DNA of 64,000 nt, taken from Chiloscyllium plagiosum (lineage: Eukaryota). Both the position numbers and the translations under genes were made by a program. The DNA lies in contig NC_057748.1 of assembly GCF_004010195.1 (NCBI RefSeq), forward strand, positions 10,602,428 through 10,666,427, in the 5' to 3' direction. Below the pieces are notes generated by a model. It made no database searches. It was not told where the DNA came from and saw only the letters and a list, made by a program, of their open reading frames with translations. This document shows, in pieces, positions 1,441-63,859 of this stretch. Positions within the stretch are counted from its first letter, which is position 1. Every line of letters begins with the position of its first letter.

Positions 1441-4400
1441 CTAACTGCTGTCCTCCAGCGAGAGCCGGTCAAACAGGTACTCTCCCAGCCCATTCTCAGG
1501 AGCTCCCAGACGCTTCAGGTTGGTGATGTAGTCCCCAAGTCGCTTGATGATCTCAACCTCCTCATCCAAATAGTGAGTCTCCAGGAAGTCACACAGCTGN
1601 NNNNNNNNNNNNNNNNNNNNNNNNNNNNNNNNNNNNNNNNNNNNNNNNNNNNNNNNNNNNNNNNNNNNNNNNNNNNNNNNNNNNNNNNNNNNNNNNNNNN
1701 NNNNNNNNNNNNNNNNNNNNNNNNNNNNNNNNNNNNNNNNNNNNNNNNNNNNNNNNNNNNNNNNNNNNNNNNNNNNNNNNNNNNNNNNNNNNNNNNNNNN
1801 NNNNNNNNNNNNNNNNNNNNNNNNNNNNNNNNNNNNNNNNNNNNNNNNNNNNNNNNNNNNNNNNNNNNNNNNNNNNNNNNNNNNNNNNNNNNNNNNNNNN
1901 NNNNNNNNNNNNNNNNNNNNNNNNNNNNNNNNNNNNNNNNNNNNNNNNNNNNNNNNNNNNNNNNNNNNNNNNNNNNNNNNNNNNNNNNNNNNNNNNNNNN
2001 NNNNNNNNNNNNNNNNNNNNNNNNNNNNGTGTTGCCCTGAGGGTCAGGCAGTGATGAGAATGAGGTGGTGGAGCTTACATGAGGGTCAGTCTGGGCAGTG
2101 GCGAGTTGGTGTAGATCCAGCAAACTCTGGTTCACATTCTTCTCCAGATCCAGGGCAACCTGCATTGCCTGCAGCCCGTTACCCCACTCATCCCTCTCTG
2201 GCTTCTGAAACATGGAAACAAAGGACAGTTAAGGACCAGGACAGAACAATTACCAGCTATTGGAGGTCACCTTGCCCACTTGTACTCAAACTGGATGTTC
2301 AAGGAATGATCTTCTGATCAGTTGGATTATGAGATGCATAAACATCCCCCTGTAAGTTAGGGTACATTCTGTGTATAATCTTTGCCAGTACAGAGATCAG
2401 ACAGGCAAAGCTCCTCTTTCAAGTGAAAATCCTACTACTACTTGAAGCCACATTGGAGAGAAAATGGCTCTCAACCATACACCAGCCCCCCAGCCATCCC
2501 CCAAATTCCCACCTTCACATCCTGGAGGAGGACTCTGCCTCCACGCTGATTCTGGAATTTCAGCAGCTTCTCTGCATGATCCTGCTTCTCCTGGGACTGG
2601 GCTTTGAAGAACTGGGAGAAATGGTGCAGGGCAACATCGTCCCGGTCAAAGTACGACATCTGAAAGAGAACCATTTCCATCCCATTAACATCACTGGGCC
2701 CAATTGTACGTCTCAAAGCCAGGAGCAGCCCTTTCCCAGCTGCTCTGATCAGATCACATTCAGCAGGAAATCTTTTCTATTTCCTCAGGTAGATTGAACA
2801 GTCTCTCACCTAATGTCCTGTTCAATGGAAGGTTAGCCAGTTGGTAGATGAACTGAAATCCAATATAGAACTTACAGAAGTGATAGCTTTCATGGCAAAG
2901 TGAAGTTTTAGTCTCACATTCAATATAACATGGGAGGTATCATTTTTACTAAAATTGGGAAATTAAGTGTAGCCAGGAAACAACAGACCACTGGAAAAGA
3001 AATAGATTGAGAAAGGATGGTTAGAACCTTCATAAATACCTCAGGAGAGAAATGAAATATGCATCTTTCTCCTGGGGAAAACCAGGAGGGGTTTAGGAAG
3101 GCAGGAAATGGTATTCAAAACAAGAATTCTAACAGTAACCAACATTTTTGCATTCCATTCAAACTACAAGTCACCCAAGTATTTGTAACAAGGAAAAGTC
3201 TAGATATACACATCTGGGATCAGAAAGTGATTGTGCTGCAAGATTAAACCCAATTGGGTGATTAATGAGGCTTGTCTTTAAATACAAGATAGGGGCAGAG
3301 ATTTGGCCATTGTCCTATCCAAACATGGCCGACAGGTTCTTGAATATCAAGAGGATCAAAGTTTGAGAAAGTAGGAGAATAAGGTTGAGAAACAAGTCTT
3401 CTGTAGCAGTGAATTCTAAAAGATTCACTTCTGACAAAAGTAGTTTCTCATCTGTACAAAAAAAGTCTCCCTTTAAACTGCACCCTTGGGCCCTGATCTC
3501 TGCAAACAATAATCTTTGCAGTGTCTAACATTGGGATGATGGTTCCATGAGGAGAACAGGACCCAAAGGCACAGCTTTAGAGTGTAGACATTAATCCACT
3601 AGATGTCACCATTCACCAAACCCAATCCACCTCACTGTACCGAGTCAGTCCATGACCCACTTCCCTGGGAAAGGCAACAAGCCCAAATTGTGTCCAGACA
3701 ATGAATGTTATGACTAACCCAGAGAAAGTTTACAGCTCTGATCAATTATCTTATGACAGGTGAGTTTTTCTTATCTGTGAAATAAATTATGCAACTTTAG
3801 GTCTCCATCTTTCTCAGCCTTTTTGTGATTAGTTTCTACAATATAAAATTAGGCGAAATTCAGATTATAACATACTGGTGTTTAGTATGATAACTTGCTC
3901 ATAATGATAGGGTCATCATAATGGTCCATTTGCTGCATATGAAGATTATGTTTGGTATTTAACAGAGTTTTAAAGAAATTGACATAATTTCAACATTTAC
4001 AGATATGAGTATAACTGCACTGATCACTTATTCTTGGCTCTGATATTGTATATGTTATATTTACACATTGTTTGTATGACTATATGAATTTGTTCCATGT
4101 TGCCTCTTCTTGATTTTCTTATTTTTTTCAGAACTAAGAGAGATTTTGGTTGAAGCTCCCCACAAAGTGATGAAAGGAAACAGTTAATCCAGTAGGTAAA
4201 ACAAAAAAAAAAAAAGTGTACAAGATGATTAGGGGGTTAGATAGGGTCGACAGTATGAACCTTTTCCCGCGTATTGAGTCGGGTGTTACAAGGGGGCATA
4301 GCTTTAAATTAAGGGGGTAGATATAGGACTGATGTTAGGGGTAGGTTCTTCACTCAGCGAGTTGTTAGTTCATGGAATGCCCTGCCAGTAACAGTGGTGG

Positions 4401-5927
4401 ACTCTCCCTCTTTATGGGCATTTAAGAGGGCATTGGATAGGTATATGGAGGATAGTGGGTTAGTGTAGTTTAGGTGGGCTTGGATCGGCGCAACATCGAG
4501 GGCCCAAGGGCCTGTACTGCGCTGTATTCTTCTATGTTCTATGTTCTATCTATCCCACAGCCCAATGAAGGTACAGTTAACAATTCAAGCTTGTGTTACT
4601 ACTTCAGACAAGTAATCAACTAGAAGAAACCAATATAATATTGTTTATTAGACCAAAATGGTTGAAGTGGGCAAAAAAAAAAAAGGGAGTGTTAAGGAAG
4701 AGGTGAACATCAGCACAGAAGGAAACCACTCCATCCATCCATCCCATCTAACAGGACTCTGATCACATACCTTTCTCCATAAGGAAATGAAATTCACTTC
4801 ATAAGACAGGTGCCTTTTAAGAGTGGGCAAAAAAAAGGGAGTGTTAAGGAAGAGGTGAACATCAGCACAGAAGGAAACCACTCCATCCATCCCATCTAAC
4901 AGGACTCTGATCACATACCTTTCTCCATAAGGAAATGAAATTCACTTCATAAGACAGGTGCCTTTTAAGTTATAGTATTTTATTTATAACCTTCCTATAC
5001 ATAGTCACTAGGAGTCCAGCTCTCTACAGTAGCTTATGAAATAGACATTGGAGCTAACTAAACAAACCACAAGCATTTCATACTTGCACATTATACCCAT
5101 TTATATTTGAAGCACCAGGAGAGCCCAATAACTGAACAGGCCCTCATTTAAGTTAGAAGTCTCTAGTGGTCTTTCCCCTCAGCACCTTGGCAGCAACTGC
5201 CCTCAGTTTTAGAGCATTCCTCAACAGTCCCAGACTTTGGAATATACCATCTACAACATGCAGTCAGGCTCAACCCCTTGACCTGGAAGTCCAGGTTTCA
5301 GGCAGACCAAGAGCCTCTTTCACTGAGATGGTCCTCCAGGCCAAGTCAGTGTTTCTCAGTGTGCATCCCCAGGAACAAACCAGGGAGTGGAGAGCTAATC
5401 AGGACAAGCCTCAACAAAAACTGAAGCCTTTCCCTATGCTTCTTGTGCAAAGGTAGATTTCAGAAGATTGAGTCTGTACAGACCCCTCAGCTACATCAAA
5501 CAGCACTCAGACACACCAGGCACATGAAAGATCTCAGGCATTATCCTTCTCATCAACAGCCAAGCCATATCTTGGGGCTGATTGGAAAGTTCTCATAAGG
5601 AGTCATTCCATCAAATGACATGGATAGACTGCTTGGGGAACCACATCACAGGATCCACCTTTTTCCAAGGACAGGAAATGTTGACTACTTCCTGATGGAC
5701 TCATGGTCAAAGGAGTTTTTCCTTAACCATTTCACTACAAGGGGCAAGAGATAAAGAACAATCCAGCTACTTGGAGCATTCCAGTTTCACAAATAGATGT
5801 CACTTTAAACCAAAACAACACTCACCAAAGACTGATAGAGGTAGGAGGCAGTGAGCTCCAGGTTAACCTGTTTGTTAACAGCAGCTTCACAATCCTGGTG
5901 ATAGTTTTGACAAACCTGGGAAGTCAT
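1441..5927 (-). CDS. Ferritin subunit, copy A (176 aa; exons 5826-5927, 2513-2659, 2079-2204, 1441-1596)
   Basis: Spliced translation [176 protein letters not shown]. Three phase-0 GT-AG introns at vertebrate ferritin positions; exon lengths 102/147/126/156. An N-gap lies inside intron 3. Confidence 0.95.
4216..4546 (+). mobile_element. CR1 LINE 3' end in intron 1 of copy A
   Basis: [12 protein letters not shown]...[17 protein letters not shown] and a (TTCTATG)n tail. Confidence 0.9.
4666..4969. repeat. ~150-bp tandem duplication (2 units) in intron 1 of copy A
   Basis: agtgggcaaaa...aggtgccttttaag occurs twice; it is single in copy B. Confidence 0.9.
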
Positions 5928-6001
5928 TTTCCCAACAAAACCTTCTAACCAACACACACTAAACCCCACACCAACTATATCCAAATCCCCTCTCCCATCG
6001 A

Positions 6002-6190
6002 TTTTATACCCCAGGAATTAAGCTGTAATTCAATGACATCATCAATGATGACCAATCACTCTTGTTAATCAATTGATCAGTTGCCATGTCCAATCAGATT
6101 TGAATAAGCCCAGGATGACATTTTAGAACTCAGGAACCAATCAGAATCAACAACTCATCGATGATGGAATTGCTGATGGACCTTTGACCT
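6002..6190 (-). promoter_or_regulatory. Copy A proximal promoter (TATA, TGACATCA, 3x CCAAT, GTTAATCAAT, DR1)
   Basis: TATAAAA at 6002-6008; three ccaatca boxes; AGGTCAAAGGTCCA at 6177-6190; the same module order precedes every exon 1. Confidence 0.75.
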
Positions 6191-6191
6191 C

Positions 6192-63319: not shown

Positions 63320-63571
63320 TCTGGGCAGGATAGCTTGAATTTTAGCTCCATCTAGTTATTCCTGTCCAATGGGGTGCAGAGGGTTGGCTGAGGAGAGGGA
63401 GAGGGGAAAGAGTGAAGAGGATACATTTAGTGAGGTCAGGTGTTTTAGTCCAGTAAATGAGCCAAATTGCAGAGTGATTTACTGGCATCAAGCTCTCCAG
63501 AAATCACTAACAAATGTGAGTGAAGGATCAGTAATCGGAATGATGGACAATCAGTAAGGTACGTACAGGGT

Positions 63572-63577
63572 TTTATT
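63572..63577 (-). terminator. Polyadenylation signal, copy G
   Basis: AATAAA about 125 nt after the stop. Confidence 0.72.
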
Positions 63578-63703
63578 CATTTCCATTCAGGTGGTACAGT
63601 CATTACATCCTTGCAAACATTCCTTCTCCCTAGGGAGGAGCCAGATTGTCCAAGTGAAGTCAGTAATGCATTCAGACAAGAGCAGACAGTACCCCAGGCC
63701 CCA

Positions 63704-63859
63704 CTAACTGCTGTCCTCCAGCGAGAGCCTGTCAAACAGGTACTCTCCCAGCCCATTCTCAGGAGCTCCCAGACGCTTCAGGTTGGTGATGTAGTCCCCA
63801 AGTCGCTTGATGATCTCAACCTCCTCATCCAAATAGTGAGTCTCCAGGAAGTCACACAG
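63704..63859 (-). CDS. Ferritin copy G, exon 4 only (rest of the gene lies beyond the window end)
   Basis: [54 protein letters not shown], the same peptide as the other copies. Confidence 0.93.

What the first reader, a model, noticed from the sequence alone, without database searches (positions are those of the whole stretch)
1441..63859. Amplified tandem array of an H/L-intermediate, predicted ferroxidase-deficient ferritin in a cartilaginous fish
Seen: at least 7 co-oriented ferritin genes, five apparently intact (A, C, D, E, F), encoding almost the same 176-aa protein. Add 3 to convert to human H numbering. E27, Y34, E61, H65, E107 and the 3-fold channel residues H118/C130/D131/E134 are kept, but in every copy where the exon is visible position 62 is Lys (QSQEKQEH), 141 is Glu (LDEEV), 144 is Ile and 172-173 are Arg-Leu ([10 protein letters not shown]). 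Established: E62 bridges the two irons of the ferroxidase centre; mammalian L chains have K62 (salt bridge to E107), E141 and L173; teleost H and M chains keep EE at 61-62. The L-type nucleation glutamates 57 and 60 are Ala and Gln here. Inference: a subunit with neither a complete ferroxidase site nor a full nucleation patch has been dosage-amplified and held invariant. It could be an early L-lineage chain or a ferritin recruited as a bulk structural or storage protein.
Basis: partly seen in the sequence, partly recalled or inferred. Interest (0 to 1): 0.85.

Follow-up and report, generated by a model that had tools for sequence, protein, structure and literature searches.

The report
Shark ferritin array lacking iron-oxidising residue
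These are near-identical tandem copies of a shark iron-storage protein gene that has lost one key iron-oxidising residue, part of a large gene cluster already known in sharks but usually assumed to be fully active, and possibly an early or repeated step towards the 'light' ferritin chain of land vertebrates.

Summary
There are seven co-oriented ferritin loci on the minus strand, five intact, 172-176/176 identical, all with K62 (and E141/I144 where exon 4 is visible); gene A equals C. plagiosum XP_043535671.1. The amplification is not new: two Greenland shark papers report a tandem ferritin cluster in sharks, one with ovary-specific expression. Neither passage mentions K62. K62 marks an old shark subfamily: 61 of 61 rows, 12 species, on the same chromosome as an intact E62/Q141 subfamily. 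E141 is confined to carpet sharks (36 of 36 versus 0 of 25), so that likeness to L chains is convergent. Whether K62 is inherited with tetrapod FTL is unresolved: trees flip with column choice and AU tests reject nothing. Copies are under purifying selection (pN/pS 0.14), with exons homogenised while introns diverge, and share a CCAAT/TATA promoter with no iron-responsive element. Best reading, inferred and untested: a ferroxidase-deficient, L-like partner subunit mass-produced with the active cluster subunit in oocytes. New variant of a known kind.

The parts
63704..63859 (-). Exon 4 of a ferritin gene whose upstream exons lie outside the window (E141, I144, R172, L173; AATAAA 126 nt after the stop)
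58917..59147 (-). Gene A promoter module: DR1-like AGGTCA-A-AGATCA, three inverted CCAAT boxes, altered TATA (TTTAAGTA)
54145..58837 (-). Gene A, intact: exons 58837-58736, 55735-55589, 54873-54748, 54300-54145; 176 aa identical to C. plagiosum XP_043535671.1
50640..50830 (-). Gene B promoter module (DR1-like, three inverted CCAAT, TATA)
47198..50536 (-). Gene B, intact: exons 50536-50435, 48559-48413, 47927-47802, 47353-47198
31285..31470 (-). Gene C promoter module
27112..31190 (-). Gene C, intact: exons 31190-31089, 29144-28998, 28035-27910, 27267-27112
22965..23150 (-). Gene D promoter module
16635..22873 (-). Gene D, intact if exon 1 splices over the degenerate duplicate: exons 22873-22772, 18343-18197, 17559-17434, 16790-16635
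19480..20035 (-). Degenerate duplicate promoter and exon 1 (frameshift and insertion) inside intron 1 of gene D
11945..12140 (-). Gene E promoter module
8983..11868 (-). Gene E, incomplete: exons 11868-11767, 9555-9409 (donor AT instead of GT), 9108-8983; exon 4 not visible, N gap at 8294-8793
6000..6195 (-). Gene F promoter module
1441..5927 (-). Gene F, apparently intact: exons 5927-5826, 2659-2513 (E64D), 2204-2079, 1596-1441; N gap inside intron 3; recent duplicate of gene E

Best explanation
The window is part of the large shark tandem ferritin cluster, and holds one of its two subfamilies. SHOWN: the genes encode a normal four-helix ferritin subunit in which the glutamate that bridges the two catalytic irons (E62) is lysine, while the entry channel and the other site ligands are kept; the subfamily is old and shark-wide; it shares a chromosome with a ferroxidase-intact E62/Q141 subfamily; coding exons are kept nearly identical by purifying selection and, most likely, exon-limited gene conversion; each copy has a conserved DR1-like/CCAAT/TATA promoter and no iron-responsive element. 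INFERRED: K62 removes the di-iron bridge and ion-pairs with E107 (and in carpet sharks with the added E141), so the subunit oxidises little or no iron itself; being free of IRE control and present in many copies it is made in bulk under transcriptional control, most likely in the ovary; it co-assembles with the active E62 subunit into mixed 24-mers, where it plays the L-chain part (stable shell, slower oxidation, mineral core on E61/E64 and neighbouring acids) to stock iron for large yolky eggs. On origin I lean slightly to an independent H/L-type division of labour within the shark cluster (about 0.5) over direct orthology with tetrapod FTL (about 0.4).
For: Fold and family: PF00210 E 3e-35, AlphaFold2 helices A-E, pLDDT 88.7. 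K62 in 61 of 61 rows classed as this subfamily without using the metal-site columns, 12 species; 191 of 248 labelled chondrichthyan rows were kept by length; clade support 100/95-100/99. K and E types share a contig length in 12 of 12 such species. pS 0.069, pN 0.0096 over the 10 pairs of complete genes, introns near random identity. Promoter module in 7 of 7 exon-1 copies, 76-96% identity against 61% random. No Rfam hit in the window at gathering score, no IRE hit at E<=10 around gene A exon 1, no CAGWGH loop within the presumed 5' UTR of 6 of 6 genes. Human H with E62K/H65G lacks ferroxidase activity (PMC4029007, passages). K62 in 10 of 10 named reptile L chains. Ovary-specific expression of the largest Greenland shark ferritin cluster (10.1101/2024.09.09.611499, passage).
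Against: No activity, assembly or expression data for these copies. The published null mutant also changes H65, which is kept here; I found no paper on E62K alone. E27 (60 of 61), Y34 (61 of 61), E107 (61 of 61) and H65 (56 of 61) stay conserved in the subfamily, whereas reptile L chains lost E27 and H65 in 10 of 10: odd for a dead site. The cavity acids 57 and 60 are A and Q. The ovary result is from another species and does not separate subfamilies, and no Greenland shark protein was among my hits; PMC13214024 reports some copies transcribed in fin and blood. Shared chromosome is read from contig lengths, not from coordinates. The IRE scan had no positive control and the transcription start is inferred.
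Confidence: 0.55

Rival explanations
1. Non-mineralising role: the K62 chain forms its own cages (or loose assemblies) as a bulk yolk or storage protein, or binds one Fe(II)/Zn(II) at the remaining half-site (E27, H65, E107) and keeps the metal reduced and available, as proposed for mouse FTHL17.
For: Strict conservation of the remaining ligands in 56-61 of 61 rows; incomplete nucleation patch; high copy number and no IRE; FTHL17 precedent of germ-line, multi-copy, ferroxidase-less ferritins (PMC13149808, passages).
Against: An active subfamily lies on the same chromosome in 12 of 12 species, and exon 4 residues are shared between the two subfamilies in carpet sharks, as expected of partners; 3-fold channel D131/E134 intact; buried ligands may be kept for stability alone.
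Confidence: 0.22
2. Still an oxidase: the site is rearranged, with E61 or the new E141 replacing the lost bridge, giving slow but real ferroxidase activity.
For: All other ligands kept, and carpet sharks add a carboxylate at 141 in 36 of 36 rows; E62K alone has no test that I could find.
Against: K62 persisted with Q141 in 25 of 25 rows from four other orders, so E141 is not needed with K62; K62+E107+E141 is the combination of reptile L chains (8 of 10); a lysine in the site repels Fe(II) (established chemistry, recalled).
Confidence: 0.13
3. Origin rival (compatible with the best explanation's mechanism): the K62 subfamily is the true shark orthologue of tetrapod FTL, and K62 is inherited from the gnathostome ancestor.
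For: Best trees on all columns join K62 and reptile L (88/71, 90/63, 76/81); shared K62, Q119, L37, and with the E type T125, E162, L173; the E clade includes a Callorhinchus chain (95/93-100/92), which makes the K/E split very old; reptile L and M-type genes also share a contig in crocodile, gecko and girdled lizard.
Against: The grouping vanishes when metal-site columns are dropped (K+E 94/91); E62K is one G-to-A change and recurs inside the Heptranchias E clade (5 K and 4 N rows) and in a sponge ferritin (PMC8395497); no K62 row among 13 ray, 14 sawshark and 16 elephant shark rows; no mammal or amphibian L chain was in the trees.
Confidence: 0.4
4. Functionless passengers: dying copies kept similar only by gene conversion within the cluster.
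For: 1 of 6 assessable genes has a broken splice donor, one degenerate exon-1 duplicate exists; synonymous sites are far more alike than introns, which shows homogenisation.
Against: pN/pS 0.14; conserved promoters and poly(A) signals in 6 of 6 terminal exons; subfamily kept in five shark orders with a tree that roughly follows the species.
Confidence: 0.05

Closest known systems
Shark tandem ferritin cluster ('FTH1b', Yang et al. PNAS 2026, PMC13214024; 'FTL/FTH1' expansion, Sahm et al. bioRxiv 10.1101/2024.09.09.611499)
   Same: Tandem, multi-copy, four-exon shark ferritin genes on one chromosome, apart from FTH1a; the window's relatives map to one chromosome per shark.
   Different: The passages seen treat the copies by annotation label and suggest functional similarity to FTH1a; 'ferroxidase' does not occur in the PNAS main text. 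The split into K62 and E62 subfamilies is not mentioned there. I could not check Greenland shark sequences.
Tetrapod ferritin light chain (FTL; reptile 'light chain, oocyte isoform-like' chains)
   Same: K62, E107, E141, R172, L173, intact 3-fold channel; predicted lack of ferroxidase activity.
   Different: Window chains keep E27 and H65, which 10 of 10 reptile L chains have lost; only 64-68% identical to them against 72-78% to the shark E type; multi-copy; no IRE found.
Amphibian and fish M ferritin (bullfrog middle subunit, PDB 1MFR family)
   Same: Best solved relatives, 176 aa, ungapped; RefSeq names these genes 'middle subunit-like' or 'heavy subunit-like'.
   Different: M chains have E62 and Q141 (E58/Q137) and are active; here K62, E141, I144.
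Mammalian FTHL17 family
   Same: Multi-copy, germ-cell-linked ferritins reported to lack ferroxidase activity (PMC13149808).
   Different: FTHL17 derives from FTH1 as intronless X-linked copies with many substitutions (recalled); the window genes have four exons and lose one bridging ligand.
Atypical invertebrate ferritins (sponge HdF2)
   Same: E62K and usual lack of an IRE (PMC8395497).
   Different: HdF2 also has E27Q, E61S, H65S, E134A and is a minor, divergent chain; unrelated origin.

Membership tests
Ferritin (24-mer maxi-ferritin family) | Ferritin domain, four-helix bundle plus short E helix | tested here: met
   PF00210 121.5 bits against cut-off 24.5; model helices 11-38, 46-72, 93-120, 124-154, 161-172
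Ferritin (24-mer maxi-ferritin family) | Self-assembly into a 24-mer cage | not testable with these tools
   Channel residues kept; no assembly test run
H chain (FTH1) and M chain | Complete ferroxidase ligand set E27, Y34, E62, H65, E107, Q141 | tested here: not met
   K62 in 6 of 6 exon-2 copies, E141 in 6 of 6 exon-4 copies
H chain (FTH1) | Groups with the FTH1 clade | tested here: inconclusive
   Outside the FTH1 clade in all six trees, but forcing K+H is not rejected, p-AU 0.40
H and L chains (somatic FTH1, FTL) | Iron-responsive element in the 5' UTR | tested here: not met
   No Rfam hit, no CAGWGH hairpin downstream of the TATA in 6 of 6 genes; no positive control, start site inferred
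L chain (FTL) | Lys at 62 with Glu107 kept | tested here: met
   the salt bridge itself was not measured
L chain (FTL) | Loss of the site-A ligands E27 and H65 | tested here: not met
   Both kept in the window; lost in 10 of 10 reptile L chains
L chain (FTL) | Cavity nucleation glutamates 57, 60, 61, 64 (positions recalled from mammalian L) | tested here: not met
   A57, Q60, E61, E64: 2 of 4. Reptile L chains also lack E57, so the feature is not universal
L chain (FTL) | Common descent with tetrapod FTL | tested here: inconclusive
   K+L 76-90 bootstrap on all columns, K+E 94/91 without trait columns, p-AU 0.28-0.37
L chain (FTL) | Gene order of the FTL locus (BAX, GYS1 neighbours, recalled) | not testable with these tools
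   The window holds no non-ferritin host gene that I could identify
L chain (FTL) | No ferroxidase activity; co-assembly with an active chain | not testable with these tools
   Needs recombinant protein
Shark tandem 'FTH1b' cluster | Multi-copy tandem four-exon ferritin genes on one chromosome with the other cluster members | tested here: met
   7 loci in 64 kb; K and E relatives share a contig length in 12 of 12 species; equivalence to the Greenland shark cluster is inferred
FTHL17 | Intronless FTH1-derived copies (recalled) | tested here: not met
   Three introns per gene

The most novel reading that the evidence does not exclude
The shark cluster published as 'heavy chain 1b' is really the L-chain lineage, and its K62 subfamily is the orthologue of tetrapod FTL, frozen for over 400 million years at the first step of ferroxidase loss (E62K only, E27 and H65 still in place), with carpet sharks later adding E141 in parallel with tetrapods; sharks would then build H/L-like heteropolymers in the oocyte from two amplified, IRE-free arrays.
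Probability: 0.3. Interest if true: 0.72.

Novelty: new variant of a known kind. Interest (0 to 1): 0.5.

Why it matters
First, it bears on a published hypothesis. The shark ferritin expansion has been linked to ferroptosis control and longevity on the assumption that the copies act as heavy chains; if a large, conserved share of such copies cannot oxidise iron and lacks IRE control, an egg-provisioning role with an active/inactive pair is at least as likely. Second, it offers natural step-wise variants for how the L chain arose from an H-like ancestor: E62/Q141 (active type), K62/Q141 (most sharks), K62/E141 (carpet sharks), K62/E141 with E27 and H65 lost (reptile L). These can be expressed and compared directly, and they isolate the effect of E62K, which the classic null mutant confounds with H65G. 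The genes are already annotated as ferritins and ferroxidase-less ferritins are a known kind, so this is a refinement, not a new system.

Tried and rejected
Assembly artefact: rejected (introns diverged; many copies in other assemblies). E141, R172, L173 as signs of L ancestry: rejected. Positions 57 and 60 as K+L shared characters (listed): discounted, as human H also has H57 and basal K62 chains have H60. Rfam scans found nothing of note. Long non-ferritin ORFs: 2 of 9 matched retro-element domains, 7 of 9 nothing; no flanking host gene, so no synteny test. PDB searches gave frog M and human H alignments but printed no L-chain alignment, so mammalian L residues are recalled, not read. No mammal, amphibian or teleost L chain came back from the three homologue searches; only reptile L chains are in the trees. 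Rows left out of trees: fused or partial models, unnamed hits, and two squamate-like L chains labelled panda and nematode (P0285, P0289). The structure model returns no coordinates, so the K62-E107 contact was not measured. No complex prediction was sent, since a ferritin pair would pass by likeness to solved cages. Ten paper searches found no description of a K62 shark subfamily, but the library missed the PNAS paper itself, so this absence is weak; figures, bioRxiv supplements and PNAS datasets S1, S3, S4 were not seen and may bear on it.

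
Full report
1. Observation. Six-frame searches recover six copies of each of the four ferritin exons on the minus strand. They make five complete genes (A 58837-54145, B 50536-47198, C 31190-27112, D 22873-16635, F 5927-1441; my letters run in the direction of transcription), one incomplete gene (E 11868-8983, intron-2 donor AT, exon 4 missing at the N gap 8294-8793) and one lone exon 4 (63859-63704). 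All other junctions are GT-AG. The proteins are 176 aa and 172-176/176 identical to A. Ungapped alignments to frog M and, through a crocodile chain, to human H confirm the +3 numbering. K62 is in 6 of 6 exon-2 copies; E141, I144, R172, L173 in 6 of 6 exon-4 copies; E27, Y34, E61, H65, E107 and the channel residues are kept; 57 and 60 are A and Q. Gene F has D64. A degenerate promoter and exon 1 sit in intron 1 of gene D.

2. Real array under selection. Over the 10 pairs of complete genes pS is 0.069 and pN 0.0096, ratio 0.14. Intron sequence more than 40 nt from a junction is mostly 55-79% identical, close to the 61% of random pairs with the same aligner, and intron lengths differ widely; only E and F are recent duplicates (92-94%). 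Synonymous sites this close beside introns this far apart point to exon-limited gene conversion on top of purifying selection (inference). Upstream of 7 of 7 exon-1 copies lies one module: a DR1-like repeat, inverted CCAAT boxes (three in the six genes, two in the degenerate copy) and a TATA box 81-120 nt before the ATG, altered in gene A. AATAAA follows 85-128 nt after the stop in 6 of 6 terminal exons. Rfam finds nothing at gathering score in the window and no IRE at E<=10 around gene A exon 1; no CAGWGH hairpin lies between TATA and ATG in 6 of 6 genes. There was no positive control and the start site is inferred.

3. Relatives. Gene A equals C. plagiosum XP_043535671.1. Three homologue searches and two cluster look-ups gave 248 named chondrichthyan rows that I labelled; 191 of 165-200 aa were classed by nearest anchor after removing 16 metal-site columns. 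The sample is biased towards the query. K class: 61 rows from 12 shark species (five orders, order names recalled), K62 in 61 of 61, E27 60, Y34 61, E107 61, H65 56. E class: 110 rows, E62 99, Q141 107, M144 102. A third class of 20 rows has a full site. E141 is in 36 of 36 carpet shark K rows and 0 of 25 others. R172 is in 32 of 36 carpet shark K rows and 36 of 40 carpet shark E rows, so it marks the lineage, not the subfamily. No K row appeared among 13 ray, 14 sawshark and 16 elephant shark rows. In 12 of 12 species with K rows, K and E proteins are listed on a contig of the same length. Inside the Heptranchias E clade, position 62 has changed again to K or N.

4. Phylogeny. The K62 clade is firm (100/94-100/99). 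Without L chains it is sister to the shark E clade (98/88). With nine or seven reptile L chains and all columns, K joins L weakly (88/71; 90/63 without carpet shark rows; 76/81 under LG+C20). With the 16 trait columns removed K joins E (94/91). AU tests reject nothing: K+E p 0.37 and 0.32, L+tetrapod M p 0.32, K+L p 0.28, K+H p 0.40. K, E and L share T125, E162, L173; K and L share K62, Q119, L37; K and E share K22 and C9. Conversion between K and E could inflate K+E; convergence at the metal site could inflate K+L. Reptile L chains differ in having lost E27 and H65 in 10 of 10. Mammal and amphibian L chains were not obtainable, and the window has no flanking host gene. Orthology to FTL is open.

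5. Literature. Sahm et al. (10.1101/2024.09.09.611499; passages) report 155 'FTL' and 179 'FTH1' copies in the Greenland shark, clusters syntenic with the white shark, and ovary-specific expression of the largest cluster. Their statement of 90% amino-acid sharing with human does not fit the 66-72% I see to H-type chains. Yang et al. (PMC13214024; passages, supplement list, term searches in files 1 and 3; figures not seen) report 59 'FTH1b' copies in two tandem clusters on a chromosome apart from FTH1a and FTL, more copies in sharks than in rays and elephant fish, some transcribed in fin and blood, and suggest functional similarity to FTH1a; 'ferroxidase' does not occur in the main text. PMC4029007 (passages) gives E62K/H65G as ferroxidase-null. 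PMC13149808 (passages) describes FTHL17 as germ-cell ferritins without ferroxidase activity. PMC8395497 (passages) describes a sponge chain with E62K and atypical IRE-less ferritins. PMC13207978, PMC11719527 and PMC13701976 (passages) added only background and the PNAS reference. Ten searches showed no account of a K62 shark subfamily; the library lacks most subscription papers and missed the PNAS paper, so this is weak.

6. Mechanism. Shown: intact fold, loss of the bridging carboxylate, conserved channel, selection, promoter, no IRE found, a ferroxidase-intact sister subfamily on the same chromosome. Established (partly recalled): E62 bridges the two irons; L chains carry K62 and work by co-assembly with active chains. 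Inferred: the K62 chain is a low- or no-activity partner of the E62 chain, both amplified for bulk, iron-independent synthesis in the ovary to load iron into large eggs (0.55). Rivals: a separate storage or single-metal-binding role, prompted by the strict retention of E27, Y34, H65, E107 (0.22); a rearranged, still active site (0.13); functionless passengers (0.05). On origin: independent in sharks about 0.5, shared with FTL about 0.4.

7. Verdict. Observation confirmed; interpretation partly supported. It works, most likely, like an L chain; it fails the L-chain test on E27/H65 and the nucleation patch and is unresolved on descent, so it should not be filed as FTL, nor as H or M. The cluster is known; the ancient K62 subfamily and its carpet-shark E141 step appear undescribed in what I could search. 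New variant of a known kind, interest 0.5.

Noticed in passing
window 19480-20035 (-): Degenerate duplicate of gene D's promoter and exon 1 (frameshift after codon 9, insertion, stop) inside intron 1 of gene D; gene D's model depends on splicing past it.
   Followed up: partly
window 9408-9409 (-): Gene E intron-2 donor reads AT instead of GT; a GT lies 6 nt upstream in frame. Mutation or sequencing error not decided.
   Followed up: partly
window 42901-44385 (-): Broken retro-element with reverse transcriptase (E 2.5e-15) and endonuclease pieces in the 16-kb gap between genes B and C.
   Followed up: partly
window 6187-7577: 693-bp tandem duplication at 98% identity starting in gene F's promoter; could be a local assembly artefact.
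   Followed up: no
window 33276-33582 and 4677-4969: 29-bp minisatellite (about 10 copies) and a 148-bp two-copy repeat.
   Followed up: no
position 22 (H numbering), shark cluster proteins: Lys replaces Arg22 in 51 of 61 K rows and 94 of 110 E rows, but 20 of 20 rows of the third class keep Arg. The human H arginine here is needed for NCOA4 binding (recalled), which bears on the ferritinophagy idea in PMC13214024.
   Followed up: no
Heptranchias perlo E-clade proteins (P0032, P0241, P0243, P0244, P0246; P0097, P0105, P0239, P0240): Independent E62K and E62N changes within the otherwise intact subfamily.
   Followed up: partly
exon 4 of carpet shark K and E subfamilies: R172 and L165 occur in both subfamilies in carpet sharks but not in K rows of other sharks, suggesting conversion between subfamilies.
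   Followed up: partly
database records P0311, P0314, P0285, P0289: A white shark K62 ferritin also carries a Salmonella name, and squamate-like L chains are labelled panda and nematode: probable contamination or mislabelling.
   Followed up: no
upstream of each exon 1: A near-perfect DR1 nuclear-receptor repeat and spaced inverted CCAAT (Y-box-like) elements are conserved in all copies; such boxes are typical of oocyte promoters in frogs (recalled), untested here.
   Followed up: partly
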